Shown here: positions 1-31,696 of the stretch, piece by piece
Layout of the letters: each line of letters begins with the position of its first letter
How positions within the stretch are numbered: position 1 is the stretch's first letter
DNA from: Sphaeroforma arctica JP610
Taxonomy: Eukaryota
DNA length: 36,543 bases
Direction: 5' to 3'
Assembly (NCBI RefSeq): GCF_001186125.1
Contig: NW_014040312.1
Span: 41,135-77,677 of the forward strand
Notes under the pieces: model-generated
What the model was told of the DNA's origin: nothing
The model's database searches: none
Seen by the model: the letters and a program-made list of their open reading frames with translations, nothing else
Position numbers and translations under genes: made by a program

Positions 1-59
1 ATATCAGCTCATGAATGCCGCGAACATTGAACGATGGTCGAAATCCATACAATACATAC

Positions 60-1812: not shown

Positions 1813-1859
<47 letters not shown>

Positions 1860-2184
1860 TAATTATTTGNNNNNNNNNNNNNNNNNNNNACGTGCGTGTG
1901 TGTTTGTGTGTGTGTGTGTACGCGTTATTTGGTTGTTTTTACATACATATGTTCATAATTTTTATGTTCTTATGCAGTGATTTTATGATGCTCATCTATA
2001 CATAGAGCTGCGATTTCACACCGACACTTACTTGTTCCTCGTTGTAGTTTGTAATATTGTAGGTAATGTTGCCGACGGTCATCATATTAGGATCGAGTGT
2101 CTCGTTCAGAGCGGCCACAGTGGCATTAATACTATCACGAACCATCTCGTCGATTGCTGCGACAGTCGCATTGACGTCCGCCAT
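60..2184 (-). CDS. RNF121: RING finger membrane E3 ubiquitin ligase, RNF121/RNF175 family; 5' partial, exons 2184-2032, 1076-913, 450-60, continuing beyond the left edge
   Basis: Spliced translation MADVNAT...NEEQ|IRRLKVKQE...KEHEGHDSMHAEMFFIIML...WKKHNEKSYKR|YTLFAMWVVPVWFS...KATRKPL...TPKLVYNYFLMMYKLCY...LFYGLYYGCLLRDFAEICAESMGNSIG matches the remembered RNF121 N-terminal/TM region (H.GH..MHAEM, ATRKPL, LFYG.YYG.L.RDFAE). GT-AG sites keep the frame. A second in-frame acceptor exists at 480. The RING exon is not in the window. Confidence 0.88.
1676..1920. repeat. (TA)n/(TG)n microsatellite with assembly gap (N run ~1870-1889), in RNF121 intron 1
   Basis: Dinucleotide runs and Ns are directly visible. 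Confidence 0.9.
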
Positions 2185-2620
2185 GATCGTTATATTTGGT
2201 ATTTTTATATGTATGTATGTCAGAGACTACAAAAAGGCACCAGCGAGTTGAAGCTTTGAACTCATGTGTGCTATTGAATGCGCGCCCTCGTCAAACAGGA
2301 AGTGCGCAATTGAACTTAATTATACGTTCGGACTAACTATGATATACAAGCCAAATATACTCTGTCTTTAAAATAAGCACATACGTGTTTATTTCCGAAT
2401 AAATTCTTTAAATACACGCGTTATGTATGCGAACAACTACGAGTATCGCACGAGCAACTCTTCACTTTGAAAGTTCGAATGTTTGTGATCATGTCATTGA
2501 TCGTTCCGCCCGCCAGAAATTCCACTGACATTGACACCTCTGAAGTCTGATCTCATTGGGGCCTTATTTAAATCAAGTTTCTACGGCAAAAAAACAACCC
2601 AAGTTTATTTGCATCTATTG

Positions 2621-2682
2621 TTGCCGAATTTGCGTACCTTGGGTTTCCGGTTTGCCGAATTTGCGTACCTTGGGTTTCCGGT
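2621..2682. repeat. Perfect 31-bp tandem duplication in the divergent RNF121/OXSM intergenic region
   Basis: TTGCCGAATTTGCGTACCTTGGGTTTCCGGT at 2621-2651 and again at 2652-2682. Confidence 0.9.
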
Positions 2683-3279
2683 TTTCACATTGTGTGCATT
2701 TACCACAGTTACTAAATAGCTACTGGCCTACCGACTACAGTCTACCGACTACCCTACCGAACCGAGTACCGAGAAACAGACTACATACCGTACTATTTTT
2801 AAGTAAATACCGCCTGACACTTGACGACAAGTTGACAGTACCGACGCTATGATGCCAAATTTGGCTGACATTTGTTTTGGCGGTTGTATACCATACATAG
2901 TTGTGTGTGTAAATATATATTTATGTATTTTTGATCTATTTCGATGACCTATATAATATAGGCTATAGCAGAGTAGCGTAAACATACTGGTAATTCATTT
3001 ATACATATATACATATGGTGCTTTACAAAGGTTTGCTGAGTATTCAATTCAAGCATATGACAAGGCTCACCTCTTGTTGTGTGTAAACCCAACATATGTA
3101 TATCATTGTACGTGTTCGGAAACAGGTATATTACAACACAGCATAGCTATAGCGATCGTATATGAATCTATTTGTACCGAACCATAGCCAAGTATCTCAC
3201 AAACACAACATACCTGTAAAACCAACGTATATCAAGCTGCATATACTGAAACGTAGTTGTATATCACATAAATACGACC

Positions 3280-6200
3280 ATGCTTCGTTGCAGCTCCAAG
3301 ATCAACACGGCCCGGGTAGGTCCTAGACAACTCAATATAACAAGCAGTTTATCAATGGCTCTCAGATCGAGTTACAGGATCATACACGCACATCTCTGTA
3401 CACAAACACATACGAATACATACTATACATACTCTAACAATAATAGGCAGGAGCCTTCACATTCATACAACAGTGCTATAACGAGTTTGTCGAAGTCACA
3501 GAGTTGTCGTGGTGTATTCAGATTCAGTCAACGGACACACACAACAGCCTGTACTAACAATGGCGGTACAACATCAGACCCACCCCCACCCCTACCGCAT
3601 CGTCGCGTGGTGGTGACTGGCCTGGGGTTGATCACGCCATTGGCCGTGGGTGTACAGGTGATTTCTCGTGTTCACTTTTCTGTAAAGGTTTGGCGACTTT
3701 CATGTGGTCTTGTCACTTTCGTGTATGGCCCACACGGGTGATTTGTGGTTCACATCTAAGTGCTATATGATTGTTTTGTGACCCTGTGGTGGTGCAAGTC
3801 TATTTCTTTCGTGTCAGTGATATCTACGCGTGTCTGCCGGTATAGTTTGACGGTCTGATTGCTTAGTGGCTCTCATCTCTGTGAATATCACGTTTGTGAT
3901 TACTGTGTGGTGATTAGCAAAGAGTGCTGAACACACACTACAGCAAATGCTAGTAGAGGTGGTGTCATGTCCCATACATTTCTTCCCTTATCGTATTGTC
4001 GTATAGTGATGACTGGCCTGGGTTTGATCATACCGTTGACTATGGGTGTAGAGGTGACACTTGCGAAATGTGTCTGTTTTGTGATCCTTATTTTGGTTTC
4101 AAGTTTCACAGTTGAGTGAAGTTAATGTGTGATTTGTGTGTCACGTCCGTGTTTGTTGTTTGGTGGCTCTCGTGTAGTTAAGTTTAAACACTTTCGTGTT
4201 GTAGACGTGCTTCCATGTTCTGCGCGATTGTGTTGTGACCCTGGTATATTGTGGCCTAGGGCTATCACTTCTTGTAGATGACGTGTGGTACTACTGGGCT
4301 AGCCTGGTTTCGTGCAGCAAATCTCATCAATAGTTTGCTTCTGCTCCCATACCTACCAGGCCACATGGGAGCGGTTGTTGGCTGGTCAATCTGGCGTGCA
4401 CGTGCTTGAGGACGATGACAGCAATACGTTTTCTACGCTTCCCACGAATATAGGTAAAATAGGGTGACTTGCACAGAGACAACGTATTACAAAGATCTTA
4501 CCTACTTGTCGGCCTGCGATTGCGTATCTCAGTGTCTATGGCTGTATGTATATGTATTTATAGGCGAGCATAAACTAGGTGTGGCTTCTTGGCCTATGTT
4601 GTAGCACTGTATACGTATCGACGCTGTTCGAACCCCCTTGGCACATGGTATAGCTGGTCTTGTACTTGTGGTACGGTATCGCCTCGCCACGAACATGTGC
4701 AACTAGTTCTATAGGGAGGCCCGTGATCTGTAGATGTCAGTATTACGTTTGCCAAGTAAATTCATTGTGATAGCACATGACTACCAGGCAAGTGAACGTA
4801 TAGGTTATATCTGCGAGCCAGAATTTGATTTAGTTTATAGAAAGGGTTCAAACGTATAGTAGATGTCTCCGAGACATTTAAGTCTCATCAAATCGATCGT
4901 TGTAAGAGTTGCCTAGTGTGTCAGTTCTATATGCCGGACCGAATGGTCAAGCCAATACTGAACACCACAGTACGCGTTGCGTGGTTTTTGTACACACACT
5001 GGATCGCGCATGCCTATTAATCCAGCGTCGGAGAACTATTCGCAATACCAATTTCGATTACGTATGTATACACATCCAGCAATATAGTACAATAGTACAC
5101 AGTCTAGTGCAACCATACACAATCGACATGCGCTTTGACCTCGTGCAAGAGCTTCCGTTCCTCAAGTCGCTACCAGTTCCGCTCACACGACCACCTGAAG
5201 ACTACGACATAACAGTTGTTTGCACCAGTCACTTTAGTGGCAGGTGCATACATATCCAGTAGCCCAGTACATGCGTAAACCATTTAGTACAATCACGCAA
5301 AATCTATTAATTTCATATACTAGCATAGTACAATAGTACACAATCTAGTACATTGATACACACAGCCCCCGCGTGCTTTAACCTCGCATAGTAGAGGTGC
5401 GATAATTTCCCACGGAGAAGAGCCGCACCAGTTTCGCCAAAAACAATCCCCCCAAAAAAACCCCGATTCACACTCTTCGCATTGCGTACAGTCTGGTCCT
5501 GTCATCCATGATCCGCGCGTGCTATGACTTTGCAGGTGCTATCGTCCCCCACGGAGAAGAGGCCCACCAATTCCGCCCCAACGATCACCTGAAGACCGGG
5601 GAGTCGCGTAGGATACCCCCATTTGCGGTATATGCACTAGCTGCCGCAGACGAAGCCCTAAAGGATGCCAAGTGGACACCCGAGACAGAGACTGAGCAAG
5701 TACGGACGGGCGTGGATATAGGTATGTGATAAGTAGTTTTTCTGCCGTTGTGTAGTTACTGTGAACGTTTGAGATGTCTTAGAAAAGGGGGTTGGGCCTG
5801 AATTGAATCGGAGTGTTGCGGTTGTTTGGGATTGGCCTAGGAATGTATCGGGTGGTTGACGCGTTGCGTTCGTGTTGTATAGTCAGTGTACTTGAGGGAC
5901 GCCAAAGCGCGTGCGGGGTGAATGGTGTAAGGTGTACGCCATGTTCAGGTGCGCTATCGAAAGTTATATTGAATGTAGATAATAAAGATATATTGAATGT
6001 AGATAGCGAAAGTTATATCGAATGTAGATAACGAAACTATATTGAATGTAGATAACGAGAGTTGTGTTGAATTTAGATAACGAAAGTTATATTGAATGTA
6101 GATAACGAAAGTTTTGTTAGCAATTTTGTTTAACTGTCTATATAGCAGTGACTCTTATATACGGAATTAAATCGATGTTTATGTACATATGTGACAGTGC

Positions 6201-7782
6201 GAGTGGTTCAAAAGTTATTTGCGGATGAAAGAATACCAATCAGAGCGTGGCAACAGACTGTCTATGAAGATACTATGATGCAACTCTAGCATGTATACGA
6301 ACTATGCTGATTGTCTTGCCCAGGCGTTTGGTGTACATACGATGTTACTGCTTACCGAACCACTTACCGCAGCGATGGACACCTAGTCAACGGTAGGGGC
6401 GCGGATGCCCTCTCAGTAGTGTATCAACGGACCGAGATACCAGACACACCTCACATACATACCCACCACCAACACACACAACCGCTACTTGCAGGCGTGG
6501 GCATAGTGGGCCTGTCTGAAATAGCCGAAACCACCAACAGCCTGCGCAACGAGGGTTTCAGGCGTGTCAGCCCCTTCTTTGTACCCAGAATACTGGTCAA
6601 CATAGCCGCGGGGCATGTGTCCATGCGCTATGGTCTCAAAGGACCCAACCACGCAGCCTCTACCGCGTGTGCCACGGGGGCGCACAGTATAGGCGATGCC
6701 TTCTTCGTAAGTGGTATCGGAACTTTTTGTTCTTGAATTTTGCAAAGAAGGCATGTATGCCATTGACTCGACTACGTCGCATGGATCGTGAAGGAAGTAG
6801 TGGGGCAGGGAGTAGTCCGCTGGGGGTGTATTCGTTTGGTGATTGCTGTATGGATTAGCGTGTTTGCGATGCTGAGAGTAGCTGTTGTGATGCCAGGAGA
6901 GCTCTGGTGTACATAGTTCCCGGACACACATCCTTTCACTATGACGTGAGATGATCTGACCACGCAGCGTTTACGGGGTGTGCGAATAGGTGTGCACAGT
7001 ATCGGTGATAAATTCCTTGTAAGACGTATAAAAGTTTACGCATCTTGTCAGTGGCGTAAACGTTTTTTCAGGGTGTCCATTCGCAAGGTAAGGTATTTTA
7101 CGTAAATTCTGTGTGTATTAGTTTGATAGCAATGCGTCAGTTGGTACCTGTGAGGAATCTATTGCAGCTTGCTGTCGGACACGTAGTGCCATGGCTAGAG
7201 AAGACCTCGTCTCGCAGCTTCTGTGGCGTGTGTGACGGTTGTGTATAGTATCGGCGATATCATCTTTGAAAGTAACTTTCCTATCGCATCAGTCACTGCT
7301 ATCTTTTCCGCTGGGCCTGCACGCTACACTCCGCTCAGTCGCACCTCTTCCAACAGCTCATACTTATGCTTCGGCGATTCTATGGCATAGTACTTTCTGG
7401 TGTTTCTGTAGCCTCAAATCCAACCACATTTATGTATCTGAGTGCCTGTTCGAGCTCAGGAATACCTCCTTATAGTGGGTACATGTTGGATGGCTACCGA
7501 TTTACTTGCACACGTGACTATTATCTATCACTGCTGAGTCAATCGAGAGTAGGTTTGCGGATTTCATACATAGCTATCGGATTTGCAGGCTAATCGTTAC
7601 TATTATTTGATGATCAGTTGATACGACCCAAACTATCCACACATATGTATNTAATTATATATTATATATTATAATATTAATATATATATATATATATATT
7701 ATATATAATATATTATATATATATATATATAATNTATACATTAAGNNNNNNNNNNNNNNNNNNNNNACTACACTACTACACT

Positions 7783-7852
<70 letters not shown>

Positions 7853-10800
7853 CACCTAAGGGCCTATCGTTACCTATATGTATAGACACTTGTCATACCC
7901 ATATTCATATACATATACCCATATTCATATACGTATATCCATCCTCCACACTACCCGCCCCTCAGCACATCAAGAACGGAAATGCAGATGTGATGGTTGC
8001 AGGAGGTGTGGAGTCGTGTGTATCAGCCGTGAGTGTTGCAGGTTTCGCACGGATCAAGGCACTCTCTACGAAGTACAACGACCAACCAGAACAAGCCAGC
8101 CGGCCCTTCAGTGCGGGCAGGGATGGGTTCGTCATCGGCGAAGGGGCAGGTGTGGCATGTCGTATGAAAATATATGTGTGTATATGCGTAGAAATATACT
8201 GCGTCGTCGCATATTGATAGTTTATGTGTACACACTTAGTAATCAATGGCATTATATCACAAAAAATAGATGTATACAGGCTACAAATATAACGAACAGC
8301 CAGAACAAGCCACCCGGTTCTTTAGTGCGGGCAGGAATGGGTCTATCCTAGGAGAAGGCAACAATGTGACATGTCATATGAATATATATATATATATATA
8401 TATAGATAGATATGTTTTTGTATGTATATGTATATGTATATGGATATGGATATGGATATGGATATGGATATGTATATGTAGAAATGTTTACTTGCGTAAA
8501 AAATACACAGCGGCTTCATATAATAATAAATATATGCGTACACATACTTAAAGAAATACATATGAATGCGTGCATACTTCGAACTGCAACAAGCAACCAG
8601 AACAGGCCGGTCGGCCCTTCACCGTGGGCAGTAGTGATGTTGTTAATCGGCAAATGTGCAGGTGTGGCATGCTATACAGTTATATGTATAGATATGTACT
8701 AAACTATTTGTGCGTACATTAAGTTATGTGTGCACATGACAATATGTTTTTGTACATATGAAACGATTCACAGGGACACTTCAATGGAAACAAATGACTG
8801 TATGCAAATATTGCTAAGCGCGACAGCACGAATAGGGTCTCTGCCCGTATAACAACAAATGTGTGCATTTACTTGCCTTGTTTATCTTGGTGCTTGCCCT
8901 CCAAATACACATCGATTGCCGAGAGTTTATGTGTGTACAAATTTGCTTTGGGAATGGGTATAGACATGTCTAGGGCGATACGTTGTGCACTGGTTCATAT
9001 AAAAGGATCAAGTGGCAATCGTTACATGTTGATTTTTCCGCAATAGCACAAGTTACTCCGGCTAGTACGTAGTAGGTGGAGGGTGGATGGATGTCAACCT
9101 AGACGACCTATATTTGACAGTTGGGAGTGTTGGTATCTCCATAGACTCAATCCGAGGCATGCAAATTCGCGGTGATTTATTTGAGGGTCCAAGGTTTATT
9201 AATTTTACGAATGCTCATCCACGTATTTATGCACAGGCTCGATAAAGAAACAAATTCACTTTGGCATCTGGCAAATTCTTATTCATTTATTTTGTACGCG
9301 TTTGGTTGGAACGATACTCATTCTCTCTATTCGTACCCTATCGTGATCCAGATACCCAGGTACACTCTCATTTAGAACGGTATTCGAATTCTCTATGGTC
9401 ATCTTACAATCTCTCACCCACATGCTACATGTGCACGTCCACAATTCTGTGCACTCCATGGGCATCCTACAAAACTAAAACTCAATCCACACACTTGCGC
9501 GTTTACGCTCAGGTATAATGGTACTCGAAGAGCGAGAACACGCCATCCAAAGGGGTGCCAAGATATACGCAGAGATGCGAGGGTACGGATCCAGTGGAGA
9601 TGCCCATCACTTGACAGCACCCTCACCTGAAGCCACCGGTGCGAAGACGTCTATGGAACTGGCCATACGCATGAGTGGGCTAAGGAAGGATCAGTTTGAC
9701 TATATCAACGCACATGCGACGTCGACACCTATGGGTATGTGGAGGGGGTTCATACGCGTGAACGAGTGCGTAAATGGCTGTCTTGTGATGCATGTGTATC
9801 GACATATATGGATTAGCGGAGAGGGCTTATACGAGTGAATTAGGGCGTAATAGCTGCCTGGTGATGCATATGTGTCAACATCTATGTATCAACGAAAGAG
9901 ACTCCCACGTGTCTACGAGTGTGTAAATGGCTGTGGTGTGGTGCATGTCTATCGACACCTATGGGTGTGTGAGAGGACAGAGAGCTCATACGCGTGTGTG
10001 TGTGCGTAAGAGCTGTAGTGTGGCGGATTGGAACGGTCACCTGTGGGTTGTGCATAAACATGATCAATGGCCTACGTCTGGCAGTTCGATCCGTTAGCAA
10101 AAGACAGCCACTTGAAGTCTATATGGGAAAGATTCGTATGTCGCTCTATTTTGTTCGAGGTCAGTTTCTTATAAATACCGTCCTCTCTGACATGTGTAGC
10201 AAGAGATCAATAAGGAGTACACTCGGGTATAAAACCTTAGATACGGCTAGCGTGGTGTTATAGGTTCAATATCAACTCGATTTGACGCCTGTGAACACGT
10301 AATCTTCATTTCTTCCTCTCTTCAATTCGTTTCTGGGCGGTATTCCAAAGATCCATGGTAGATTGAGGGTCTTTCGGTAATCCACAATAAATGTTAAATG
10401 AGATATTTGCTTCTGTGTGTCCGTATCTACCCAGGTGATACCCTCGAGGCGATGGCTATCAGTTCTGTTTTTGGGGACCATGCTCCGAACATATCTGTAT
10501 CGTCCACAAAGGTATGTTTGTTAGAATAAGTAGTAATGTTGTAGTATATTCTAGTAAACAGTCAGTATATCTGTTGTTCTTCGTGCGAAACAACTAGATC
10601 ATACAATTCGATCTAGGAGTATGTGCACAGTTATGGTCTTTCTTCGCGATGTATCCATCTTTGTGAACACTTGAGTACATCTTTGCTCGCCTCGCGACAG
10701 CTAAGTGGGTAGCCACGCACAGGAGTCCACTCATACGCGAATATATATACACGCACCCACACACACACATATATATATATACATATATATATACCTGTCG

Positions 10801-11635
10801 CTATGCACAAGCGCATGAATGTACCCATTACAGTGGCGAAAACAGTGGCACTTGAGATCTGAATCGTTGTTCACTTCTGAGAGTGTCCTAGTGTACCGAT
10901 GCGTAGCATTGCTTCTGTACTTACCACCTAGGTAGATATAATTAGTTGGTCGGAGTAGACATCAAACACTTTGCTTGCTATTAAATTGGTAGCTGTAGCC
11001 TGTGCGTGTGTGTGCTTACGTCATGAAAGCGTAAACAAATGAGTTTTACTTTGGCGCGCTACTCTCGTCTACACACACCGACCTGCGCGGATGTCCTTCC
11101 CTGTAGCGCATTCGTTTGGTTACGATGGATCTATCACAATTTGTAGATCAAATAGTGTCCCATACTGATATCGTATCATTGTTCTCTATACAAATCTTCC
11201 GAACCCGACAGGGCGCAACAGGTCATCTGCTGGGAGCCGCGGGTGCGGTCGAGAGTATATTCGCCGTTCTAAGCATAGAAAATGTAATCTTGCACGCGCT
11301 TCTATATCTTTTGTGTTGTCGTAGATGTAATTGGCATGTTGATGTACTATTCTTGCTTTCTCATATGCTTGGCAATGGTGACTACAATGATGAAAAATGT
11401 CGATGTTTCACGCACGATCAGTGTAACGCTGGCCTAGATCGTCTGAGAATGCGCTATATAGACGCAACTCGAAAATATGTGCTGGTGGTATTTATTTTAC
11501 TATAAAAATATGCATCGTAATATATAGTATATATATATTTCATCGTTTGAGTTGAGTGCGGCTCTGTCGTGCACCATACATACCCAATTCAATGTCTAGT
11601 GCAAGAGCGTTCTTCGCCCCTGTCATTATTACAAG

Positions 11636-11697
<62 letters not shown>

Positions 11698-12543
11698 GCA
11701 TATATATATATATCTATATCTATATATCTATATATCTATATATGTATATATATATATATATATATTTGTGTGTGTATGTACATATACATGTATATATATT
11801 TATAATATATATATATATATATAGCACGTGACTGCCGAAGTACGGCCTGGCTATAGTTCGGCTATACATTTGTAGAGCTTCCTTTCGATCATTGTCTGAG
11901 TCTGTAGTCTGCGCGAATAAATGGATATCGTTATGGCTTCGCGTCACTTGTGTATTTTCCAATTACCTATATCCAGTAGCATACTAAATACATGCACTAC
12001 AATGGTATGTGTATGTTCGTGTCTGGTAATCTGTTTTTTCACATGCAACAGTGCCTCGTGTCTGTGTTTGCATATACTATACAATTTTTCGATAACATGT
12101 AATATACAATTGTACAACATGTACTATACAGTCTTTCGATATAATACAGGGAGTGAACTACGCTGTACATGGCCTATACTTGCTTCTCATCCAGTGGTTT
12201 TCGAAACAACAATTAAAATTGGTTCTTGCATTCGAACAGGAATGCTATTGTTCCAAGAACGGGAAGTGAAAACGTACCCACACAAAGACGACACGTGATT
12301 GTACTGACTTTCAATCTAACTCTAGGGCATTTCTCCCATCTACAGGGCAAAATACCCCAAACCCTAAATCTGGAGACAGTGGACCCCGAGATTGCCAAGT
12401 ACAACCTCGACCTGGTTGCAGGTCAGCCGAAAGAGAGAGCAGTGCGTGCCGTACTGTCCAATTCGTTCGGATTCGGTGGCACGAATGCCTCATTGTGTTT
12501 CGCAGAGCACTTGAACGACGCAGCAAGTGACGAGAAAATATAG
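3280..12543 (+). CDS. OXSM: Mitochondrial 3-oxoacyl-[acyl-carrier-protein] synthase (KAS II/FabF-type); exons 3280-3657, 4360-4453, 5536-5721, 6495-6706, 7966-8149, 9513-9734, 10435-10511, 11212-11283, 12346-12543
   Basis: Exons join in frame at GT-AG sites. Motifs: [17 protein letters not shown], catalytic Cys in [18 protein letters not shown]...[55 protein letters not shown]. The long R/S-rich N-terminus resembles a mitochondrial presequence. The start codon is the least certain part. Confidence 0.93.
5959..6116. repeat. ~25-bp minisatellite, ~6 copies, in OXSM intron 3
   Basis: Unit CGAAAGTTATATTGAATGTAGATAA repeated with few substitutions. Confidence 0.9.
7651..7851. repeat. (TA)n microsatellite with assembly gap, OXSM intron 4
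   Basis: TA runs and an N run are visible. Confidence 0.9.
11636..11822. repeat. (TA)n microsatellite, OXSM intron 8
   Basis: Long TA run; it explains the YIYI ORFs. Confidence 0.9.
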
Positions 12544-14169
12544 TTAAAAACGGCTAAAACTCATTGCATGTATCGATTGGTAGCAGGCTTGTTAACACAA
12601 ACGCATTCAGCACAATAAACTTATCAAGCGATACAAATCAGACTAAATCAATTATTACAAACCAGCCGTTCCAAACTTATGCTCTTTGATGGAGTCAAAA
12701 AGTCATTCCTCCGGTAAGCTTGCTTATTTATCTTTTTACTTGTCTTTCATATGACCCACACACATACAACCCACTCTCAGAAGCACACAATAATTAGCTT
12801 ATGCCTATTCTTCTGATTGAAATAGCTTTTCACAGCACTAGCGATAAATACCTCGTAATTGCGTCATTCTAAAACTTTACTACTCACTTTGGTACAAACT
12901 TTGTACATTGTTCCCTATTCGGTGAAATTATACTGTGCTGTACTTTATGTGCAATCGCGACGAGTGCTACAATCGTTCTAGAAACTTTCCATCGTAGCTA
13001 GTTGTATCTGAACTCGAGTTACATAACTAACCTAGACAGAAACACTCGAACAAGGCTACAAAAAAAACGACATTGATTATACAACCATGCCCATTATCCA
13101 CTTCTCTTGCAATAATAAGCACAGCATGGATACAGTTCCGATCATGTCTAACCCAATATACATACACCAAACGATACCACAAACCGTGTACAGATTCAGT
13201 TTACAATTTATTCAATTCAGCGCTTAATCTCCGCGTCGAGTCTAGTATCGCTGCGAAAATTCTTCTAGCCTATCCGATGGACTGTGCTGATATCCGAGCC
13301 TAATCTATTAATATTTGCTTCCCAATCCAAAACCACCTGTAGGAACCACCGTGCGTGCCCTTGTGCGACTGCACTAGCGCGCATATGTATGCATGTGTAC
13401 AAACGGTGCTCCCCTCTCAGTTTCTAATCCTGGCAACCTCAGTATGCCCATCCCCGTTGCGAGTGTCCATTTCGATTGTCATGACATGCCAATGAGAACT
13501 GTAATGGATCCTCCCAAACTGAGAAACTGCGCCCAAAAGACCAAATTCAATATTACGACTTCTCTCCTTCGCTCTGCATAGATTGTCGGTGTCATGGTCC
13601 ACAAGACACTCTCTACGTTTGCAAAGGCGATCGTCAAGATACGTAACACGGATTTCGTTGATCACAGTCGTGATGCTTATTGTAGTTGCGGCTCATCGGT
13701 TCGGAGTTTCATAGTTGTGATCTGATTTAATATATAGCACAAACCTCTCCAAATACGCGACCGTTTCGTCTTACAGTATGAAACAGAGGTGTGTGTAAAA
13801 TGAGGTCCATACCACCATACAAACATGCACCATGCCAATCCAGAGATAGACTGACGTGCACGTTGGTTCACAGACCCTGTGTACATAATATAAAGAACGG
13901 AACATGATGTTCCGGGATGCCGTGGATCCCAACGAAGGCCGGGGGTGTGTATTTAGAAGATATAATACTTCAGCGTGACAAAAGCACACCACCATACAAC
14001 CCACACCACAGGCAGTAGAAGTATAGCGTCTGTAGGTTCTAGACCTAACCAGCCACCGATTAAAGGCTTCATAAAACCCCCATACAACCACCTGCCTCGC
14101 TTCTAGGCCAATATCTCCCAACCACCTAATTTCTAATTTACACGGCAACACTCAGCCAAGACCGGCCTC

Positions 14170-20354
<6,185 letters not shown>

Positions 20355-22727: not shown

Positions 22728-24035
22728 GTTCACGAGAGTTCTAGGTAAGAAGCACTATCTGTAGTTGTAATGTAGAGTTTGTTGCTTGTGATATACTTTG
22801 TAATTAATTTTCAGATATTGTGAATCATCTGTTCAACCGGACAGAAAACAAACGTCGAAAAAGTTGTACTCAGCGGACCGCAACAGTGGCACCGTTAATG
22901 ATTTGCCCTATGGCAGATTCCAATGACTGATGCGTCACCATCATCAACGTCATCTGTCCCGTATGTTTATTCATTTCCTTTGAAATATTGAATCGACACT
23001 GACAAGGGAAGTAATTGAAATTCTTCTTATCGTGTGATATCGTGTGCTGGAACGAATATTCGTTCACAGGAAAAAGGCAAGACGCACTACTAGATGTATT
23101 GTGAAACTTATACCGCAAAGGTAACAAGCGATTGATTTGCAAGAATATCAAAGGGAATCATATGTATATAAATTTATTAGGCATTATGAAGAAAAAAATG
23201 AGGAAAGTTTTTCTCTTGATGCCCTCACCTGATTTTGCCGGTATGTCATCGAATTGGCAAAGAACATTTTCAACATGTATTTCTCACAGATTAAGCTGAT
23301 GCAAAGCTGACTCCATAGGTTATTTGATAATTTGCCCTGTCACCGCCCTGTCAAAAATAGCATTACGTTTATCACAGACGCTGATAACAATCCGACAAAT
23401 ATACATACAGAAACCTCGCCACTGAGTTATGTTGACACAGAAATCAGTGACAGTACTTTTTTCAGGCTGTATGTTAATGTAAGGGCCGTATTTATTTGAG
23501 TAACGTGAAGACTAAATTCACATTCACGGCCATAAAGCTTGTACTTGTTGACGAAAACATGTACGTTACTGGGAGACAGGCTCTTCTTCTACCAGTGCAG
23601 ACAATGAATAGACAACCAGTCAAATGAGCACAACAGCCAGTAACATCGCCGACAGTGACTTTGCTTAAAGGTGTGTTTATATATTTGAGAATGATTGTCA
23701 TTTTTTGTAAGATAAAACTTGGAAAAGTCTTCATTGATTTTCAATTACCCAATGCACTGCCAGGGGAATTAGAACATCGAACATATCAGGGCAAAATCCA
23801 TGCTTTTTGAGGGGGGAAACGGGCTGGAAACCGAAATGTAGTCCTAGTAGCCAAACAAACTAAGAAGCTTTACAATGTCTAAAGTGATAATGACTAGTAA
23901 AAATACGTTGTATGGATCTACGTTGTTGAGAAAGATACTACTACCTTTTGAATTAGGTATTGGGAACGGTGAACATGTAGAAAGGAAGCAAAAGAAGATC
24001 ATCAACGTAGATACCAATGTCACAATATGTACTGT

Positions 24036-24813
24036 TGTAATAAGCCGGGCCTCCACATTAGACTCTATGTTATAAACGTACTCTTAAGCAATACGTAAAT
24101 TATAAACGTAATCTCAATAGTACGAGGAACTTAAGTTTCCTAAATGTACTCTTAATAGTACGAGGAACTTGATTTTCCTAAATGTACCCTTAATAGTACG
24201 AGGAACTTAAGTTTCCTAAAATAGCACGAAGAACCTAAGTTTCCTAAAATGGTTTTTAATGATATTATTAATTAATACCTTTTCCATTTTACATATCAGA
24301 TATTTGGACGAGGCCATTAAAAGGCCTCAGTAAAACACCAAACATAAAGAGTTGGTCTAGTTCTATTAATAGAACTTTATTTACTTTCCAACTTTATTTA
24401 TATCTGAATACTTCGGTAGCGAGATGGCTCAACCAAATATAGGTTTCTAGGGACTATTAACGTTACCTAGTTGATCCTCCGATCAGCCAACCAGATGTGC
24501 CAGTCTGATGAAGGCTAAGTCGGTAATTCTTGATAAGTGGCGAGTTATTGGTTAAGGCAATAACTAAGGACATCAAGAGTTTTTTTGTTTTTTTTCTAAA
24601 GATAGGATTTTATGAGTCTCTCAGATTCGCCCCAATTGAAACATACCATAGTTTCTAATAGAGCGACAACGAAACACTAAATAAAATCCATTCGGCGGAA
24701 ACAGTACTGAGAGGATTATATATAGGCAATGTCTCAGCCTCACAATCCCTCAGAGTATTGCTGTTTTCACGAGGCATGCCTAACTTTACTAAAAGTCTCA
24801 TTTTGTTTCTTTA
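24036..24813 (+). repeat. Left long inverted terminal repeat (~780 bp)
   Basis: Reverse complement of 30588-31245 along its length, e.g. CAGCCAACCAGATGTGCCAGTCTGATGAAGGCTAAGTCGGTAATTCTTGATAAGTG vs CACTTATCAAGAATTACCGACTTAGCCTTCATCAGACTGGCACATCTGGTTGGCTG. Contains an extra ~38-bp tandem array at 24116-24249. Confidence 0.92.
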
Positions 24814-25027
24814 CTTTGATATTTACACGATACTTAGAATTTACTTACGCGTTTATTTATTATAAGGCATTAGTATCGCTATAATAGACCGAATATTACA
24901 CATTTTAAAGTTAGCAAAGGTATTAATTACTTAGACTACTTAAGCGTAAAGGTAGATTAACTACCACAAATTTTTTCTTGTCCAAGCTAGTCCTTAAGAG
25001 ACAAGCTAGTAGTCATAAGTTAAGATT

Positions 25028-26781
25028 ATGACCAAGAAAGACAATACTCCTTCTAAAAAGCGTAGAGCTGAAAAGAAGAAGATGGAGAGAGAAGCCGTTA
25101 GCGCTGCCGCTGCTGATGCGTTCAACCGCACTGTAGCCGAAGTACTTGCCTCTGACAATAATGTTCAAAAGGACAATGCTTCAGATAAGGATGTAGCCAC
25201 TCCGATTAAGGAGACTACTTCCACTGATAGAGCCCGACGGCCAACTATTGCCTCAACTTCAAAGCTTGCATTTACGAAGCCAAGAAGTGAGACAAGGGAC
25301 ACGTCTCAAGACGCCCCAACCCCTTCTTCTGACGAAACTCAGAAAGGAAAGTCCCCAATTATAGGGGACAAGGACAAATCTCAGAAGGAACCTATTATGG
25401 AACCAGAAGAGAAGGCAAGCTCATGTGGTAAACCCGAATCTACGTCCGAGACTACTAAGCCAACGCGCATAAGTAAGTTGATTACTGAAAACATTGATCT
25501 TAAGAATCAGTTAGCTACCATTATGAAAGACTTGACTGTCGAACATGTAGATCAATTATATAGATCAGGAAAACATACACAGCACTTACGCGAGCATGTT
25601 TCCCCGGGCATTACTCAAGCCCTACAGAGGTGGACAGACCGTCGACAGGCAATTACGCCCGAAGAACGTAAAGACTCAAGCGCTACACCTGAGGCATATG
25701 ATCCAGATGTGCTCAGCGTAACTATACCTTACGAGGCACTACCGCCAGAAGTTCAGGCTAATTACTCGCCTGTGCTGACACCCGGCCGTGAGTCACCCGT
25801 CCTTGAGGTTATTATAGACCCAGAGGCAGGTAGAAATACTCCGCCACTTTTACCCAATTGAGATGACAATCGTCGGAATGTTATCCAGACGCATGAATCA
25901 CCCAAGATTTTAATACCAACCACTATCCGAGGAACAGGGCACCGAAAGGCCTCGACCATGGACTTTACAAGGGGTAATAAACACCCCCCGTAAACGTGTT
26001 AACGAAGTCGAATTTAATCGCTTCGATCGCACAGCACTACATCAACCCGCAGAGGATTTTCACTCTGACGAGGTGACCGAACTTTTAAAATGGAAATCGC
26101 CCACGATGCGCATCATGCTGATGATGTAGCATATTTTGCGAATATGATAGCGATTAAGCGAAAGCGCATTGATCAGCTACTTCAGGCCCAGCGTGGACAA
26201 GATCACAGGGACAACCAGAAGTCAAGGGACAGATCAGTCGACTTAAGTCGAACTGGGATGCCAACAGTAAGCAGGTCGAGTTTATAAATAACCATGACCT
26301 CGACACGCTAACCCGTACGCTTAATGCGTTTACGATCATGCTGGAGACGAATGATATCGCTCCTCAGCAATGGATTTCTGCCTTAATGCAGACGTTTGAC
26401 CCTACAGGTACAAATTTTTTGATCCCGCAGCGACACCAGCATGAGCTAGACACTTGTCGTGACTGGCCAGCTGTTTGTTGGTTGGTTACATCCTTGTTAA
26501 GTAAGGACATACGTAGCCCAGGACTGAGTTCAATTTTAACTGAACCAGCTGAGAACACGCCCATTCAGAGTTATATTCTGAAGCTAGATGCTGACCTGAA
26601 ACGTCCAGATATTGGAATGGCAGACATGCATCCACCTGTACACACTTTCTTATTAAGTGTGACAAGTGTGAGAAGACCAATGGCTATTACACTAAGTCTT
26701 GTGACAAAAATCCCAACATTAAGTTGGAGTGAAGGTACTACCAGCTACAATCGTTACACAGACAGTACAACGACTCTTTAG
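25028..26781 (+). pseudogene. ORF1/gag-like region, interrupted (277-aa charged low-complexity ORF followed by frameshifted capsid-like fragments)
   Basis: Lies upstream of the protease. The fragment LNAFTIMLETNDIAPQQWISALMQ...DWPAVCWLV...IQSYILKL has a Gag-capsid-like pattern. No zinc knuckle seen. Confidence 0.55.
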
Positions 26782-26792
26782 ATGAGCGTGTA

Positions 26793-27090
26793 ATAATCCC
26801 TGTATACTGCAATGGAAATAAAATCCTTGCGTTGATTGATCCTGGTTCAAAAATTTCATGTATTAATGAAAGATATCGAAAGGAGAACACAAACAACTCA
26901 CCTTATTTTAGCTTATGATAAAACTGCTAAGTGTGATACCATGGCCACAGATGTTAAAATCTCCCTGGCCGATGATAGGAATATCATTACCCAAGCTGTG
27001 ATAGTTAAGATGTCACAGAAGTACGACATTATAGTCGGAATGAGCGATTTACTCACTCTAGGTATTACCGTAACTGGTCTACCAAATAAC
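26793..27090 (+). pseudogene. Retropepsin-type aspartic protease domain, frameshifted
   Basis: IPVYCNGNKILALIDPGSKISCI (D at 26838; DPG variant of D[T/S]G), then in another frame YDIIVGMSDLLTLG (ILG.D-like motif). Confidence 0.8.
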
Positions 27091-27299
27091 ATAGATCCAT
27101 TAAAGGATCAGTCAGACGATAGATGTCTGAACCCATATAAGCCTCCATCAGACACAGTCAAGGCATTAATACCTACCTTTGCGAACAAAATCATGGATCT
27201 GATTTTAGTTAATAAGAAGATAAAGATCACAGATTGGGCAAAATTCCGTTTTAACGACGGGTATGTCAGCCTTGACTTAACCAAGGTGGACTTTACATA

Positions 27300-28555
27300 G
27301 TTAAAGTGTCCCTCAAGGAACTATATATCCTGGAGACACGAGGCTGTGGTAAAAGAACAAGTTGAGAAATAGCTAGCAGATGGAGTGATAGAAATTATCT
27401 ATCAACAGACGCCAGTTAACTTGGCATCTGACGGTTCGTTTAAGAAAGTCAGAGTATGTTTAGATATGAGTCCAATAAATAATTTTTTGCCAACTCATAG
27501 CTTTCACTTACCTCGTATTAATGAGCTACTGCGAAGGATGGAATTTGCTACAGTATTTACAACTATAGACCTTATACAAGGATACCATCAAATGCAGGTA
27601 TATGAACCACATCGTAAATACTTTAGTTTTACGTGGAAAGGTAAACAATACAGGTTCAGAGGTGCACCTTTCGGGTTGCACTCTTTACCAGCATTCTTCC
27701 AATAAGTAATGGAAGAAATGTTTGCAGACATGCCTAACGTGCAAGTCTATATAGATGACATAGTCATCTTTTCAAAAACTAAGGGCAAACACGCCGCATT
27801 AGTCAGACGAGTCCTTAGACGAGTCCTTCAGAGACTCAACGAGCAAAACTTCAACATTAACGAGAAGAAATGCCACTTCGCAATGAGCGAAACACAGCTC
27901 TTAGGCTACCATATATCTGGGGAAGGTATTAAAATCGACCCCGGTAAGGTAGAACACCTGTTAGATTGGCGAACACCAACTACAGGAAGAGATGTTAACA
28001 GCATGTGTGGGTTTGTAAACTTCGTTTCAGATGGAGTACCACACTTGGCTGACTACCTTAAACCTTTTGGACACTTAAGATGTCATAAAGGCAAACTAGG
28101 AGACTTGTGGACTAAATAGTGTGATGACGCATTTAAAGCGCTCAAACACGCAGTCCAGCAAGCCCCTGTTGTACAAGGACCAGTCAATGGCGTGCCGTTT
28201 GAAATAGCAACGGACGCCTCCGACTTAGCCTTAGGAGGAGTATTACATCAGGTTATAGATGACAAACCTAGATATATACAATTCTTTAGTCGAGCAATGA
28301 ATGCTTCACCGTTGATTTATCCAACTGTTAAACAAGAGCAATTAGCCATAGTGGCAGCTCTAACACACTTCCGAGATTACTTATACGGAACAGCATTTAC
28401 ACTGATGTGTGATCAGAAATCTCTTCAATATATGAAAGAGATGAAACCCGACTCACAATTACTGAGTCGCTGGCATGACACAATATCAAAGTTTCATTTT
28501 GATATAAAACATCTGCCAGGAATAGATAACCATTTACCGGATATGCTATCACGCT
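27300..28555 (+). pseudogene. Ty3/Gypsy reverse transcriptase, connection and RNase H; one frame with in-frame stops
   Basis: RVCLDMSPIN, LPRINELL, FTTIDLIQGYHQ, APFGL, YIDD (27748-27759), KCHF...LLGY, TDASDLALGGVL, EQLAIV, CDQKSL, HLPGIDNHLPDMLSR. Stops at 27370, 27703 and 28117. A 12-bp duplication gives RRVLRRVL. Confidence 0.95.
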
Positions 28556-28593
28556 TCGTACCGGACTTTAATAAATCCGTATGTGAGTTACTA

Positions 28594-29000
28594 GCCACTG
28601 ACTGGAAATGTAGTCCCAGGTGGTTTGAGCTGGCTCAAAAGATATTTGGGCCGCACACCATAAATATGTTTGCTGCACATCATAATGCACAACTATCGAA
28701 TTACAGGACTTTAAATCATCCTTGGGAGACGCCTTTCAAATAGACCTTTCCAAACATAATGCGTGGGCTAATCCACCATGGCAGTTAATTGCCCAGCTAT
28801 TAAATTATGTTCATATACATAAAACTACCATCCCGTTGTGTTGCCCATTACGGAGTAAAGATCCATGGCTCAATAAATTAATATGCATGATACAATGCGA
28901 GCCAATATATTTAGATAGGGAAATAGATATTTTCCTATATCAGGGTACCCGAGCCGTCAAGAAGACGCCCTGGAGACATACTATAATATGTCATATAGGT
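28594..29000 (+). pseudogene. DIRS-type Dam-like DNA N6-adenine methyltransferase domain, frameshifted near 28722
   Basis: TDWKCSPRWFELAQKIFGPHTINMFAAHHNAQL...|GDAFQIDLSKHNAWANPPWQLIAQLL...LCCPLRSKDPWL matches the remembered DIRS MT pattern W.L....F......GP..ID.FA...N.....DAF...W.....NPP..LI...L......P.W...W. NPPW is at 28770-28781. Confidence 0.85.
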
Positions 29001-29459
29001 CCCATTGGAACAACCAAATGGAACCCTTCTGAGACCTTCTTTAATAAGGTCAAAGAATCAGCGATTCCACTCTCTACCCAATTGAACGTTAAGCAGTTCA
29101 AAGGCAACACAGCACTTGAAGTCTGTGCACAAGAAATACAATCTACTAATGACACTACTGTTAAGAAGCGTCAGTCTCTAGCTAGGACTCTGTTTAATTA
29201 CATAAAGTCTAAGCCCGAGGTCTTTCAAACCCTATTTCTAAAGGGATTAATGAAAGACAATCCTGAAGCGTATACACATTTAATGCGACTATTTAATAAG
29301 TCAGACGTATCTAACGTACATGAGCGCACTTTTGACACTCATGCGAAAGCAGGACAGGAGTCTGGAAACACTACAGATTTAGAGACCACGCAAGTGGATT
29401 CTCAACACCCTACCTTTATTCTGGAGGAGCAGAATGATGAAAACGTTCTTGCTTGGCTG

Positions 29460-30634
29460 ACGCAAAACCATAAGCTGAAGCACCAGAACGTAGTAGACGC
29501 ACTTAAAGATGCTAAGCGAAATGGGATCGCGCACCCTAAGCTGGCAACTTTAGTTGACAGAGTATATCAGTCATGTACAGACTGTGATCTCAATCAGATC
29601 AAGCGCTATGGGTTCGCACCGCTTAAGAGTGTGACTGAAGATGTTCCATGGCGCAGGGTCATCATTGATCTGGTTGACCTGCCCACGTCCGAGCACACAG
29701 GCGACCGTTACGTATGCCACTTCTTTGATGTGGCGTCATGGTTTAACTTGCTCTATCCATTAAAGGATAAGAATTCGCAGATCGTGGCAGAATTATGTTG
29801 CCAAGTCTTTGCTGACCACGGGTGGCCGGGTATATTGTGCACTGATAACGGTAGTGAGTTCTGCGATGACGTAATGGAATCGCTAGTACTCGTATCAAGC
29901 ATATGCCATAAGAGTGGTGTGCCATATAAGCCGCAAACGCAAGGCGCGAATGAAACGCGCCATAGAAGACTTAAGTTCTTCTTGCGTACTGCATTAACGG
30001 ATGATGCAGATGATTGGCCGTACCACCTTAAGTGGGTACAAACACAAATGAACGAGTGTGCTGATCCGGTTACGGGAACTACACCCGCTCACTATTTTCG
30101 TGGCAGATATATTGAGTTATAAATCCCCTTTAACAAGGACGAACCTGATCACCATGAGTTATCATGGTTAGAGAAGGTACAACGTTTTATAACGTTGTAT
30201 ATCCTTGCTTGCGAGAAATACGCAATATAGCCTTATTAAAAAGGCAAAAGCGTTGGAACACTACCAAGAAGATAGCAGAGTATCAGGTTGGTGACAGAGT
30301 TAATATCCGTCAACGTAATTCCGATGCTACTGTATTAACATGTAAATGTATAGGTCCATATATAATCTCTGTAGCAGACACTAAAAGTGGAACGTACGAG
30401 GTAAATAACCCCGATGGTTTTAGTGCGCTTAATATAGGCACAAGTCGTATTCTGACTACAGAGATTATACTCGCAAGAAGACATGACTCTAATGCCCCTC
30501 TTGATCGTTCTGAATTTAAAGACATTATATGGAGAACGGATAAGGGAGGTTATACTTCCTATCGTACACGCTTTATAGACGGTACAATAAATAAACAAAA
30601 TGAGTCTTTTAGTAAAGCTAGGTATGCCTCGTGA
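29460..30634 (+). pseudogene. Retroviral-type DDE integrase with HHCC zinc finger and GPY C-terminal domain; stop at 30120 and frameshift near 30186
   Basis: HKLKH...CTDC; PWRRVIID (D at 29667); TDNGSEF (D at 29844); PYKPQTQGANE (E at 29952; D-x35-E); YQVGDRV...CIGPYII. Confidence 0.93.
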
Positions 30635-31245
30635 AAACAGCAATACTCTGAGGGATTGAGAGGCTGAGACATTGCCTATATATAATCCTCTCAGTACTGC
30701 TTCCGCCGAATGGATTTTATTTAGTGTTTCGTTGTCGCTCTATTGGAAACTATGGTATGTTTCGTTGGGGCGAATCCGAGAGACTCATAAAACTTTAGAA
30801 GAAGAAAAAAGAAGAAGAAATACTCTTGATGTCCAGAGTTATTGCATTAACCAATATCTTGGCACTTATCAAGAATTACCGACTTAGCCTTCATCAGACT
30901 GGCACATCTGGTTGGCTGAACGGAGGATAAACTAAGCAACGCTAATAGTCCTTAGAAACCTAGGTTCGGTTGAGCCATCTCGCTACCGAAGTTTTCAGTA
31001 TAAATAGATTTGGAAGGTAAATATAGTTATATTAATAGAACTAGACCAAATCTTATATTTGGTATTTTACTGAGGCCTTTTAATGGCCTTGTCCAAATAT
31101 CTGATATGTAAAATGGAAAAGGTATATAATTAATAAAACGGTTAAAAACCATTTAAGAGTTTACGTACTTTTAAGAGTACGTTTTACGTACTATTAAGAG
31201 TATGGCTATAATACAAGATTTTAATGTGGAGGCCCGGCTTTTACA
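30588..31245 (-). repeat. Right long inverted terminal repeat (~660 bp)
   Basis: Reverse complement of 24036-24813, about 85-90% identity by eye. Ends ...GGCTTTTACA. Confidence 0.92.
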
Positions 31246-31486
31246 TATGTTCCTGCAAAAGAGCATCACAGACCACGTGAGTTGCGGCCCAGGCAATGAG
31301 ATAAGCTTGAATGAAGTAGAATATCCCCACCTCAAGAAAATTATTCTTAAAAAATGATTATAGCCGAAGACTCTTCAATTCAAATTAAACAAATATTGCA
31401 CGGTAAAGTTGGTAAATGTACATTAAAAAAATGGAATCGTTGTCGCCAAATGTTGTTGTGGACAAAGTACCCTAGGCGGATATTTA

Positions 31487-31522
31487 GGACCGGACCAGAG
31501 GACCGGACCAGAGGACCGGACC
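31487..31522. repeat. 13-bp tandem repeat, ~2.8 copies
   Basis: GGACCGGACCAGA x2 followed by GGACCGGACC. Confidence 0.85.
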
Positions 31523-31696
31523 GATTAGTGGAATAGAGAATTAAACGAGATAAAAGTGATGACTCATACGAAACCATAGAGACGGGTATTTTTACATATC
31601 CCGATGGTAGAGAAAGTATCGTTCCACATAGGATCGTGATTAATAAATGTAGCAGGCGCGCCATTCCCAATGGCACTTCTGACTGAGTTCACTTAT

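What the first reader, a model, noticed from the sequence alone, without database searches (positions are those of the whole stretch)
28594..29000. N6-adenine DNA methyltransferase domain embedded in a Gypsy polyprotein between RNase H and integrase
Seen: directly after the RNase H end motif (DMLSR) the frame continues into W...F...FGPHTINMFA...NAQL. After a 1-nt shift it gives DAF...WANPPW, then runs in one ORF into the integrase. Established: [DN]PP[YFW] is the amino-MTase catalytic motif IV, and this motif layout is that of the DIRS1 MT domain. NPPW is intact here; the SAM-binding D.FA reads NMFA, possibly through decay. Inference: the MTase would be fused or adjacent to integrase in the particle and could 6mA-mark cDNA or the insertion site. 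That might mimic host active-chromatin 6mA or protect against host defence. This holds whichever way the terminal repeats are explained.
Basis: partly seen in the sequence, partly recalled or inferred. Interest (0 to 1): 0.85.

Follow-up and report, generated by a model that had tools for sequence, protein, structure and literature searches.

The report
Gypsy retrotransposon carrying adenine methyltransferase
A broken copy of a very abundant jumping gene in the single-celled animal relative Sphaeroforma arctica carries an adenine-methyltransferase domain between two of its normal enzymes, which in intact copies likely marks the element's own replicating nucleic acid; this kind of element was already described in this species in a 2026 preprint.

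Summary
At 28594-29003 a DIRS-type Dam-like (PF05869) N6-adenine methyltransferase domain lies between the Ty3/Gypsy RNase H and the DDE integrase, split by a 1-nt frameshift. Two intact relatives carry RH-MT-IN in one frame. The domain is covered as deeply as RH and IN in four sequencing runs, so it belongs to the family. A flanking gene is 100% identical to a Sphaeroforma arctica protein. Three points go beyond that preprint's main text. (1) The closest solved fold is the RNA cap methyltransferase PCIF1, ahead of T4 Dam, which points to RNA, hybrid or single-stranded substrates. (2) The integrase of this clade ends in a divergent chromodomain-like domain, although the preprint says the lineage lacks one. 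(3) The MT sits tightly after RNase H, as in DIRS, and far from integrase. This copy is dead, and its inverted terminal repeat looks like a copy-level rearrangement. Verdict: real, already described; catalysis untested.

The parts
24036..24900 (+). 5' LTR, 865 nt, ends TGTAATA...TATTACA, with 38-nt tandem repeats near its start
   Evidence: read depth jumps here and 41 contigs have unlike flanks before 24036 (tables 2 and 7)
25028..26781 (+). broken gag-like region (assigned by position only; no convincing Pfam match)
26748..27080 (+). broken aspartyl protease (LIDPGS 26832-26849); end approximate
   Evidence: tblastn to P0001, whose N-terminus matches Asp_protease_2
27373..28119 (+). Ty3/Gypsy reverse transcriptase with in-frame stops (YIDD 27748-27759)
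   Evidence: Pfam RVT_1; Gypsy side of the RT tree; stops listed
28198..28554 (+). Ty3-type RNase H ending in DMLSR
   Evidence: Pfam RT_RNaseH E 2e-27
28594..29003 (+). Dam-like (PF05869), PCIF1-fold N6-adenine methyltransferase domain; motif I decayed to NMFA, frameshift near 28722, NPPW intact at 28770-28781
29004..29468 (+). poorly conserved linker between MT and integrase
   Evidence: 7-30% identity to P0002 across relatives; length 30-256 aa
29469..30122 (+). integrase zinc finger (HHCC) and DDE core
   Evidence: Pfam rve; motifs located; tblastn
30278..30589 (+). integrase C-terminal SH3-like domain and the first part of a divergent chromodomain-like domain, cut off at 30589
30588..31245 (-). 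inverted, 3'-truncated LTR of a diverged variant; replaces the normal 3' end of this copy
   Evidence: 90.4% over 573 columns to the 5' LTR, no target-site duplication; sister contigs continue the integrase beyond 30589 (table 7)

Best explanation
This is a decayed copy of a high-copy Ty3/Gypsy LTR retrotransposon family whose Pol encodes protease, RT, RNase H, a DIRS-type adenine methyltransferase domain and integrase in one frame, and in intact copies the domain likely uses SAM to N6-methylate adenines in the element's own RNA:DNA hybrid or single-stranded replication intermediates inside the particle. Shown here: the architecture, its family-wide presence, the Gypsy RT, the DIRS-type MT, and MT conservation as strong as RT. 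Predicted: a minimal class I methyltransferase fold closest to PCIF1. Inferred: (1) an ancestor took the MT from a DIRS element by recombination at or just after the RNase H end motif that both share; (2) the MT travels with RT-RNase H or is cut free, and is not part of integrase; (3) it prefers unpaired or hybrid substrate, which would explain the published negative test on E. coli chromosomal DNA; (4) the marked cDNA would be integrated, perhaps guided by the chromodomain-like tail, and would seed host AMT1 maintenance of ApT 6mA, the mark of transcribed chromatin, so new insertions stay expressed. Identity about 0.95; mechanism as a whole about 0.5.
For: Intact RH-MT-IN relatives P0001 and P0002, 52% and 46% identical to the window's MT-IN frame. 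17 of 154 proteins held have MT followed by integrase in one ORF. The window MT lies in a 15-row all-LTR clade (SH-aLRT 98), mirrored by a 10-row RT clade (97); the 46 DIRS-type RTs are split off at 100. MT identity to P0002 is 32-68%, RT 38-64%, integrase 25-54%, linker 7-30% (12 relatives, those with the domain aligned). NPP[WF] in 13 of the 14 clade relatives, CPPW in one. Model of the P0002 domain: pLDDT 90.9; Foldseek best hits PCIF1, E 2e-5; VIA Z 10.2 PCIF1, 8.5 DIMT1, 8.2 T4 Dam. [quoted passage not shown] Preprint: DAM-LTRs of S. arctica have more 6mA and expression than other LTRs, and the host has TSS-linked 6mA.
Against: No activity has been shown for any eukaryotic DAM-TE enzyme, and the E. 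coli nanopore assay was negative. Iyer et al. judged DIRS1 MT copies likely inactive. One close intact relative has CPPW. The 6mA enrichment could result from transcription and host AMT1 alone. A shared fold shows no function, and VIA rows 2-5 (Z 8.2-8.5) mix RNA and DNA enzymes. The fold was predicted for a relative (66% and 71% identical to the two halves), not for the broken window copy. Trees are quick searches on short domains. The hosts of P0001-P0154 are unnamed.
Confidence: 0.5

Rival explanations
1. The domain is an RNA methyltransferase: like PCIF1 it N6-methylates the element's own transcript (cap-adjacent or internal A), protecting or sorting it, and the genomic 6mA seen on DAM-LTRs is a by-product of transcription.
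For: PCIF1 is the best structural match by two methods, and rRNA adenine methyltransferases rank next. 15 of 69 aligned members touch the Pfam PCIF1_WW model at E<=0.1, best 1.1e-4. Iyer et al. place DIRS1 MTs in the PCIF1 clade. DIRS-borne DAMs show no link to host AMT1. The dsDNA test was negative.
Against: 62 of 69 members match phage Dam PF05869 more strongly. The roughly 140-residue domain has no room for the helical domain that gives PCIF1 its cap specificity (passage in 10.64898/2026.10.22.757692). DAM-LTRs are enriched in AMT1 hosts, 9 of 13.
Confidence: 0.2
2. The domain is a non-catalytic or barely active module kept for nucleic-acid or SAM binding, or as a structural extension of RT-RNase H.
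For: Negative heterologous assay; Iyer et al.'s reading; CPPW in P0001 and FPPF, HPP and other variants among relatives; earlier scan notes on a Rozella family that kept the domain without the motif (unchecked here).
Against: NPP[WFY] is kept in 121 of 151 MT-bearing proteins and the motif-I Asp in 122 of 151. P79-P80, D42, F44 and A45 are nearly invariant in the alignment.
Confidence: 0.2
3. The MT acts with integrase on double-stranded DNA at the insertion site or on finished cDNA, as a classical Dam would.
For: Same ORF as integrase; matches to T4 Dam (Z 8.2) and E. coli Dam (Z 7.7); 6mA enrichment on insertions.
Against: A long, variable linker separates MT from integrase; no sizeable target-recognition domain in a 140-residue fold; no gain of 6mA in dam-minus E. 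coli.
Confidence: 0.1

Closest known systems
Ichthyosporean DAM-LTR lineage (Fernandez-Moreno et al., bioRxiv 10.64898/2026.05.21.726589; whole main text read, supplements not seen)
   Same: Same host species, Ty3/Gypsy organisation, DIRS-derived Dam domain with NPP motif, same proposed 6mA/AMT1 model.
   Different: The preprint says this lineage lacks chromodomains; a divergent chromodomain-like tail is detectable here by profile and fold. Its main text does not mention PCIF1, RNase H or inverted repeats (0 occurrences). No sequence-level comparison with its family set was possible.
DIRS1-type tyrosine-recombinase retrotransposons with RT-RH-MT
   Same: Homologous MT, in the same place directly after the RNase H end motif.
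   Different: Gypsy RT and RNase H, a protease and a DDE integrase; no tyrosine recombinase. By contrast 32 of 82 loci fetched with the MT pattern carry a recombinase and none an integrase.
PCIF1/CAPAM cap-specific adenosine N6-methyltransferase
   Same: Best structural match: 144 residues aligned, Z 10.2, rmsd 3.6; NPP-aromatic motif class.
   Different: 13-14% identity; no WW or helical cap-binding domain; embedded in a polyprotein; substrate unknown.
Phage Dam family PF05869 / PHROG 111 and T4 Dam
   Same: Best sequence-profile family; core fold shared with T4 Dam (Z 8.2, rmsd 2.6 over 103 residues).
   Different: Eukaryotic, retrotransposon-borne, shorter; no dsDNA activity found in E. coli for the eukaryotic members tested.

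Membership tests
Ty3/Gypsy LTR retrotransposon | Order protease-RT-RNase H-integrase | tested here: met
Ty3/Gypsy LTR retrotransposon | RT groups with Gypsy, not DIRS | tested here: met
   46 DIRS-type RTs separated at SH-aLRT 100; only 3 MT-free Gypsy rows served as references
Ty3/Gypsy LTR retrotransposon | Two direct LTRs with TG...CA ends and a target-site duplication | tested here: inconclusive
   One full TG...CA LTR; this copy has no direct 3' LTR and no duplication. Sister contigs show a G-rich PPT-like stretch before the LTR start and a continuing integrase, which suggests direct LTRs in the family, but no full-length sister was seen.
Ichthyosporean DAM-LTR lineage | Host is an ichthyosporean named for the lineage | tested here: met
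   Flanking exon 100% identical over 130 aa to SARC_04407 of Sphaeroforma arctica
Ichthyosporean DAM-LTR lineage | PF05869 Dam domain in a Gypsy Pol | tested here: met
Ichthyosporean DAM-LTR lineage | No chromodomain (as stated in the preprint, from HMMER at E 1e-5) | tested here: inconclusive
   No Pfam Chromo hit on P0001 or P0002, which fits the preprint's screen; a clade profile does find chromodomains (HP1 E 2.9e-7). The difference is likely one of sensitivity.
Ichthyosporean DAM-LTR lineage | Falls in the published DAM-tree clade | not testable with these tools
N6-adenine (amino) methyltransferase | Motif IV [DNS]PP[YFW] | tested here: met
   NPPW at 28770; 13 of 14 clade relatives NPP[WF]
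N6-adenine (amino) methyltransferase | Class I Rossmann-like fold with SAM-binding motif I | tested here: met
   Predicted for the intact relative P0002; motif I decayed in the window copy
N6-adenine (amino) methyltransferase | Catalytic activity, and DNA as substrate | not testable with these tools
   Published E. coli assay negative
DIRS1 order | Tyrosine recombinase and no DDE integrase or protease | tested here: not met
   DDE integrase and protease present; no recombinase match in the element's frames

The most novel reading that the evidence does not exclude
The retrotransposon 'Dam' is not a DNA Dam at all. It is a stripped-down PCIF1-type enzyme that methylates the element's own RNA or RNA:DNA hybrid, and the ichthyosporean elements pair it with a cryptic chromodomain on the integrase, so one element both writes adenine methylation on its replication intermediate and reads host chromatin when it inserts. 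This would explain the failed E. coli assay and answer what the DIRS methyltransferase has been doing.
Probability: 0.25. Interest if true: 0.7.

Novelty: already known. Interest (0 to 1): 0.3.

Why it matters
The architecture itself is no longer new, and this copy is dead. What stays open is the function of the DIRS/DAM-LTR methyltransferase. This family is a good test case: a culturable host with 6mA maps, very many copies, and intact relatives with an NPPW motif. The PCIF1-like fold gives a concrete reason to assay RNA, hybrid and single-stranded substrates in place of chromosomal DNA. If the mechanism holds, a transposon would pre-mark its copies with the host's active-gene signal. The cryptic chromodomain would be a small correction to the published description of the lineage.

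Tried and rejected
Programmed -1 frameshift: a TTTAAAT heptamer lies in phase at 28710-28716 (sequence). Rejected because both intact relatives read through in one frame, the alignment break falls after the heptamer, and sister contigs carry one more base at 28721/28722 (43 contigs in X1). Those contigs hold only about 30% of the summed depth there, so a shared frameshift in some copies is not excluded. Secondary insertion of the MT: rejected (flat depth, bridging contigs, congruent trees). DIRS-like element with true inverted repeats or a Gypsy-DIRS intermediate: disfavoured. The arms differ by about 10% and in repeat content, there is no target-site duplication, the right arm lacks about 87 nt of the LTR end and cuts the integrase, and 3 contigs of X14 continue the integrase there; a local rearrangement or a mis-assembly cannot be told apart, because no read-level view of that junction was obtained. 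No whole genome was held, so copies could not be counted and dN/dS was not computed. Sequence searches of PDB with the MT found no methyltransferase. Foldseek on the C-terminal model gave nothing at E<=0.001; the best row was Ty3 integrase, E 6.6e-3. Metagenome and viral scans gave no full-length DAM-LTR: 82 loci, 32 with recombinase, 0 with integrase, 1 Gypsy-type cut at the contig end. No RNA holder was listed; expression was not tested. The profile comparisons are circular (the window pieces are in A2) and were not used. The careful MT tree did not finish. The script stopped before its last table; motif counts come. No tRNA genes in the window. Look-ups of earlier findings by sequence and place were empty.

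Full report
Observation. A profile built only from 51 DIRS-type MT domains scores the window domain, read with X at the break, at 106 bits against at most 10.2 in 500 shuffles, and finds nothing else in the window's six frames. Those 51 rows were retrieved with a close relative as query, so the test shows homology and is not an unbiased discovery rate.

Intact relatives. Searching longer proteins with the window's MT-integrase frame gave 5 hits among 3125 candidates; two, P0001 (1400 aa) and P0002 (1376 aa), cover 96-97% of it at 52% and 46% identity. Both have RT, RNase H, Pfam Dam and integrase in one frame, and P0001 also the protease. The two halves of the window MT are 57% and 72% identical to P0001 and 66% and 71% to P0002. 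Both have Asp where the window has the Asn of NMFA and read through the frameshift. The window copy has further stops in pol (27298, 27370, 27703, 28117, 30120) and frameshifts near 26860 and 30186, so it is dead.

The MT belongs to the family. Contigs of four runs were laid on 23700-31600. Summed depth in X1 is 793,000-820,000 over the MT, 833,000 over RNase H, 1.1-1.8 million over integrase and 1,568 on the left flank; in the other three runs MT depth is likewise at least that of the neighbouring domains. The tool warns this is no copy number, but the element is clearly a large repeat family. A 710-nt contig spans 28519-28888, from the RNase H end past NPPW, in all four runs. One extra base at 28721 or 28722 is seen in 43 contigs of X1 and in all four runs, though at only about 30% of the depth there.

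Wider relatives. A phmmer search of 1.84 billion representatives with the P0002 domain gave 1754 hits at E<=0.001; the best 150 were kept. Of the 154 proteins then held, 17 have MT followed by integrase, 3 have Gypsy RNase H plus MT, 51 have RT plus MT without integrase (DIRS-type), 2 have endonuclease-MT-RT, 78 are other MT-bearing pieces and 3 lack MT. NPP[WFY] is present in 121 of 151 and the motif-I Asp in 122 of 151 (22 unassigned). The MT tree (73 rows; the 78 unclassified pieces, the 3 MT-free proteins and the partial P0026 left out; quick search) puts the window in a 15-row all-LTR clade at SH-aLRT 98. The RT tree (65 rows) separates 46 DIRS-type RTs at 100 and recovers the same LTR-MT clade with 10 rows at 97. 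Across 12 relatives the MT is as conserved as RT and more than integrase. The MT has thus been inherited with this Gypsy lineage for a long time. In DIRS-type proteins the motif-I Asp lies mostly 26-28 residues after the RNase H end motif; in P0001 and P0002 it is 36, in other LTR-type proteins 37-115. This fits capture of the DIRS MT at the shared RNase H end (inference). The linker to integrase is 30-256 residues and poorly conserved, which argues against a functional MT-integrase fusion.

Fold. AlphaFold2 on the P0002 domain with a 69-row alignment gave pLDDT 90.9, pTM 0.85. All three Foldseek hits at E<=0.001 are PCIF1/CAPAM. The wide VIA search ranks PCIF1 first (Z 10.2, 144 aligned, rmsd 3.6), then DIMT1 8.5, ErmE 8.4, KsgA 8.3 and T4 Dam 8.2. 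By sequence profile, 62 of 69 members match phage Dam PF05869 and 15 of 69 match PCIF1_WW at E<=0.1. Iyer et al. (PMC4738411, passages read) already placed DIRS1 MTs in the PCIF1 clade and thought them likely inactive. [quoted passage not shown]

Host and prior art. An exon at window 60-449 (minus strand) is 100% identical over 130 aa to SARC_04407 of Sphaeroforma arctica. The first literature search returned bioRxiv 10.64898/2026.05.21.726589; I read its whole main text, not its supplements or figures, which may show domain maps bearing on the chromodomain point. It defines DAM-LTRs, names an ichthyosporean lineage in Pirum, Abeoforma and S. arctica, reports more 6mA and expression on them than on other LTRs, reports no 6mA gain on expression in dam-minus E. 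coli, and proposes methylation of RNA-DNA intermediates followed by AMT1 maintenance. The finding is therefore already described. Searches for other accounts listed no paper joining DAM-LTRs with PCIF1; the preprint's main text has 0 occurrences of PCIF1. The library lacks most subscription journals.

Cryptic chromodomain. An 11-row alignment of the integrase C-terminus from this clade finds chromodomains in PDB by profile: HP1 at E 2.9e-7, and most of the 60 rows listed are chromodomain proteins. Pfam Chromo matches 7 of 11 members at E<=1, best 1.5e-4, and not P0002. The model of the P0002 tail (pLDDT 81.6) aligns by its second half with Oxpecker and SUV39H1 chromodomains (Z 6.7 and 6.5, rmsd 2.9 and 2.3) and by its first half with SH3-like integrase C-terminal domains; these Z values are middling, and Foldseek gave nothing at E<=0.001. 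The window copy and its two nearest relatives have lost the tryptophans seen in the others, so methyl-lysine reading is doubtful for them. The preprint says the lineage lacks chromodomains; a threshold effect is the likely reason.

Terminal repeats. The LTR is 24036-24900, with TGTAATA...TATTACA ends. The right arm, 30588-31245, is an inverted LTR about 90% identical, without the last roughly 87 nt, with no target-site duplication, and it cuts the chromodomain-like region. Three contigs of X14 continue the integrase beyond 30589, and 43 and 37 contigs (X1, X12) show a G-rich, polypurine-tract-like stretch before the LTR start. The family probably has ordinary direct LTRs and this copy is rearranged or mis-joined; this was not settled.

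Mechanism and verdict. Shown: architecture, family-wide presence, conservation. Predicted: fold. Inferred: the MT rides with RT-RNase H and methylates hybrid or single-stranded intermediates, seeding host ApT 6mA on new insertions (about 0.5). Rivals: RNA methylation (0.2), non-catalytic module (0.2), dsDNA Dam working with integrase (0.1). The AMT1/6mA background comes from the preprint and from passages of PMC12695648; the cap-binding helical domain from passages of 10.64898/2026.10.22.757692. Family labels such as polypurine tract, HHCC finger and motif I/IV numbering are from my own knowledge. Novelty: already known. Interest 0.3, for the PCIF1-fold lead and the cryptic chromodomain.

Noticed in passing
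window 30588-31245: Inverted, truncated LTR of a diverged variant joined directly into the integrase tail; no target-site duplication. Copy-level rearrangement or mis-assembly.
   Followed up: partly
window 30512-30589; P0001, P0002, P0008-P0015, P0023, P0086 C-termini: Divergent chromodomain-like domain after an SH3-like domain at the integrase C-terminus, below ordinary Pfam thresholds.
   Followed up: yes
window 24901-24925: After the 5' LTR the copy reads CATTTTAAAG, with no TGG primer-binding start, whereas 21 contigs of X5 show a TGG-containing continuation there. Priming of this family is unexplained.
   Followed up: no
window 24103-24248: Three to four 38-nt tandem repeats in the left LTR, absent from the inverted arm; contigs that skip 67 or 105 nt there show length variants.
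   Followed up: no
P0040, P0061: Polyproteins with an endonuclease/exonuclease/phosphatase domain, then Dam, then RT, RNase H and an integrase zinc finger; they may be the chimeric Euglena-type elements of the preprint.
   Followed up: no
P0001 residues 693-697: An otherwise intact Pol has CPPW in place of NPPW; P0123 and P0143 likewise.
   Followed up: no
L001:1010-4810: Metagenome contig with a gag-pol Gypsy element and an MT after RNase H, cut at the contig end inside NPPW.
   Followed up: partly
window 31246-31600: The right flank is itself repetitive (depth 40,900 in X1) with a short tandem repeat near 31488-31522; nearby open frames have no useful Pfam match.
   Followed up: partly
window 1-18000: Intron-rich host genes: RNF121-like (SARC_04407), a beta-ketoacyl synthase and a DEAD-box helicase.
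   Followed up: partly
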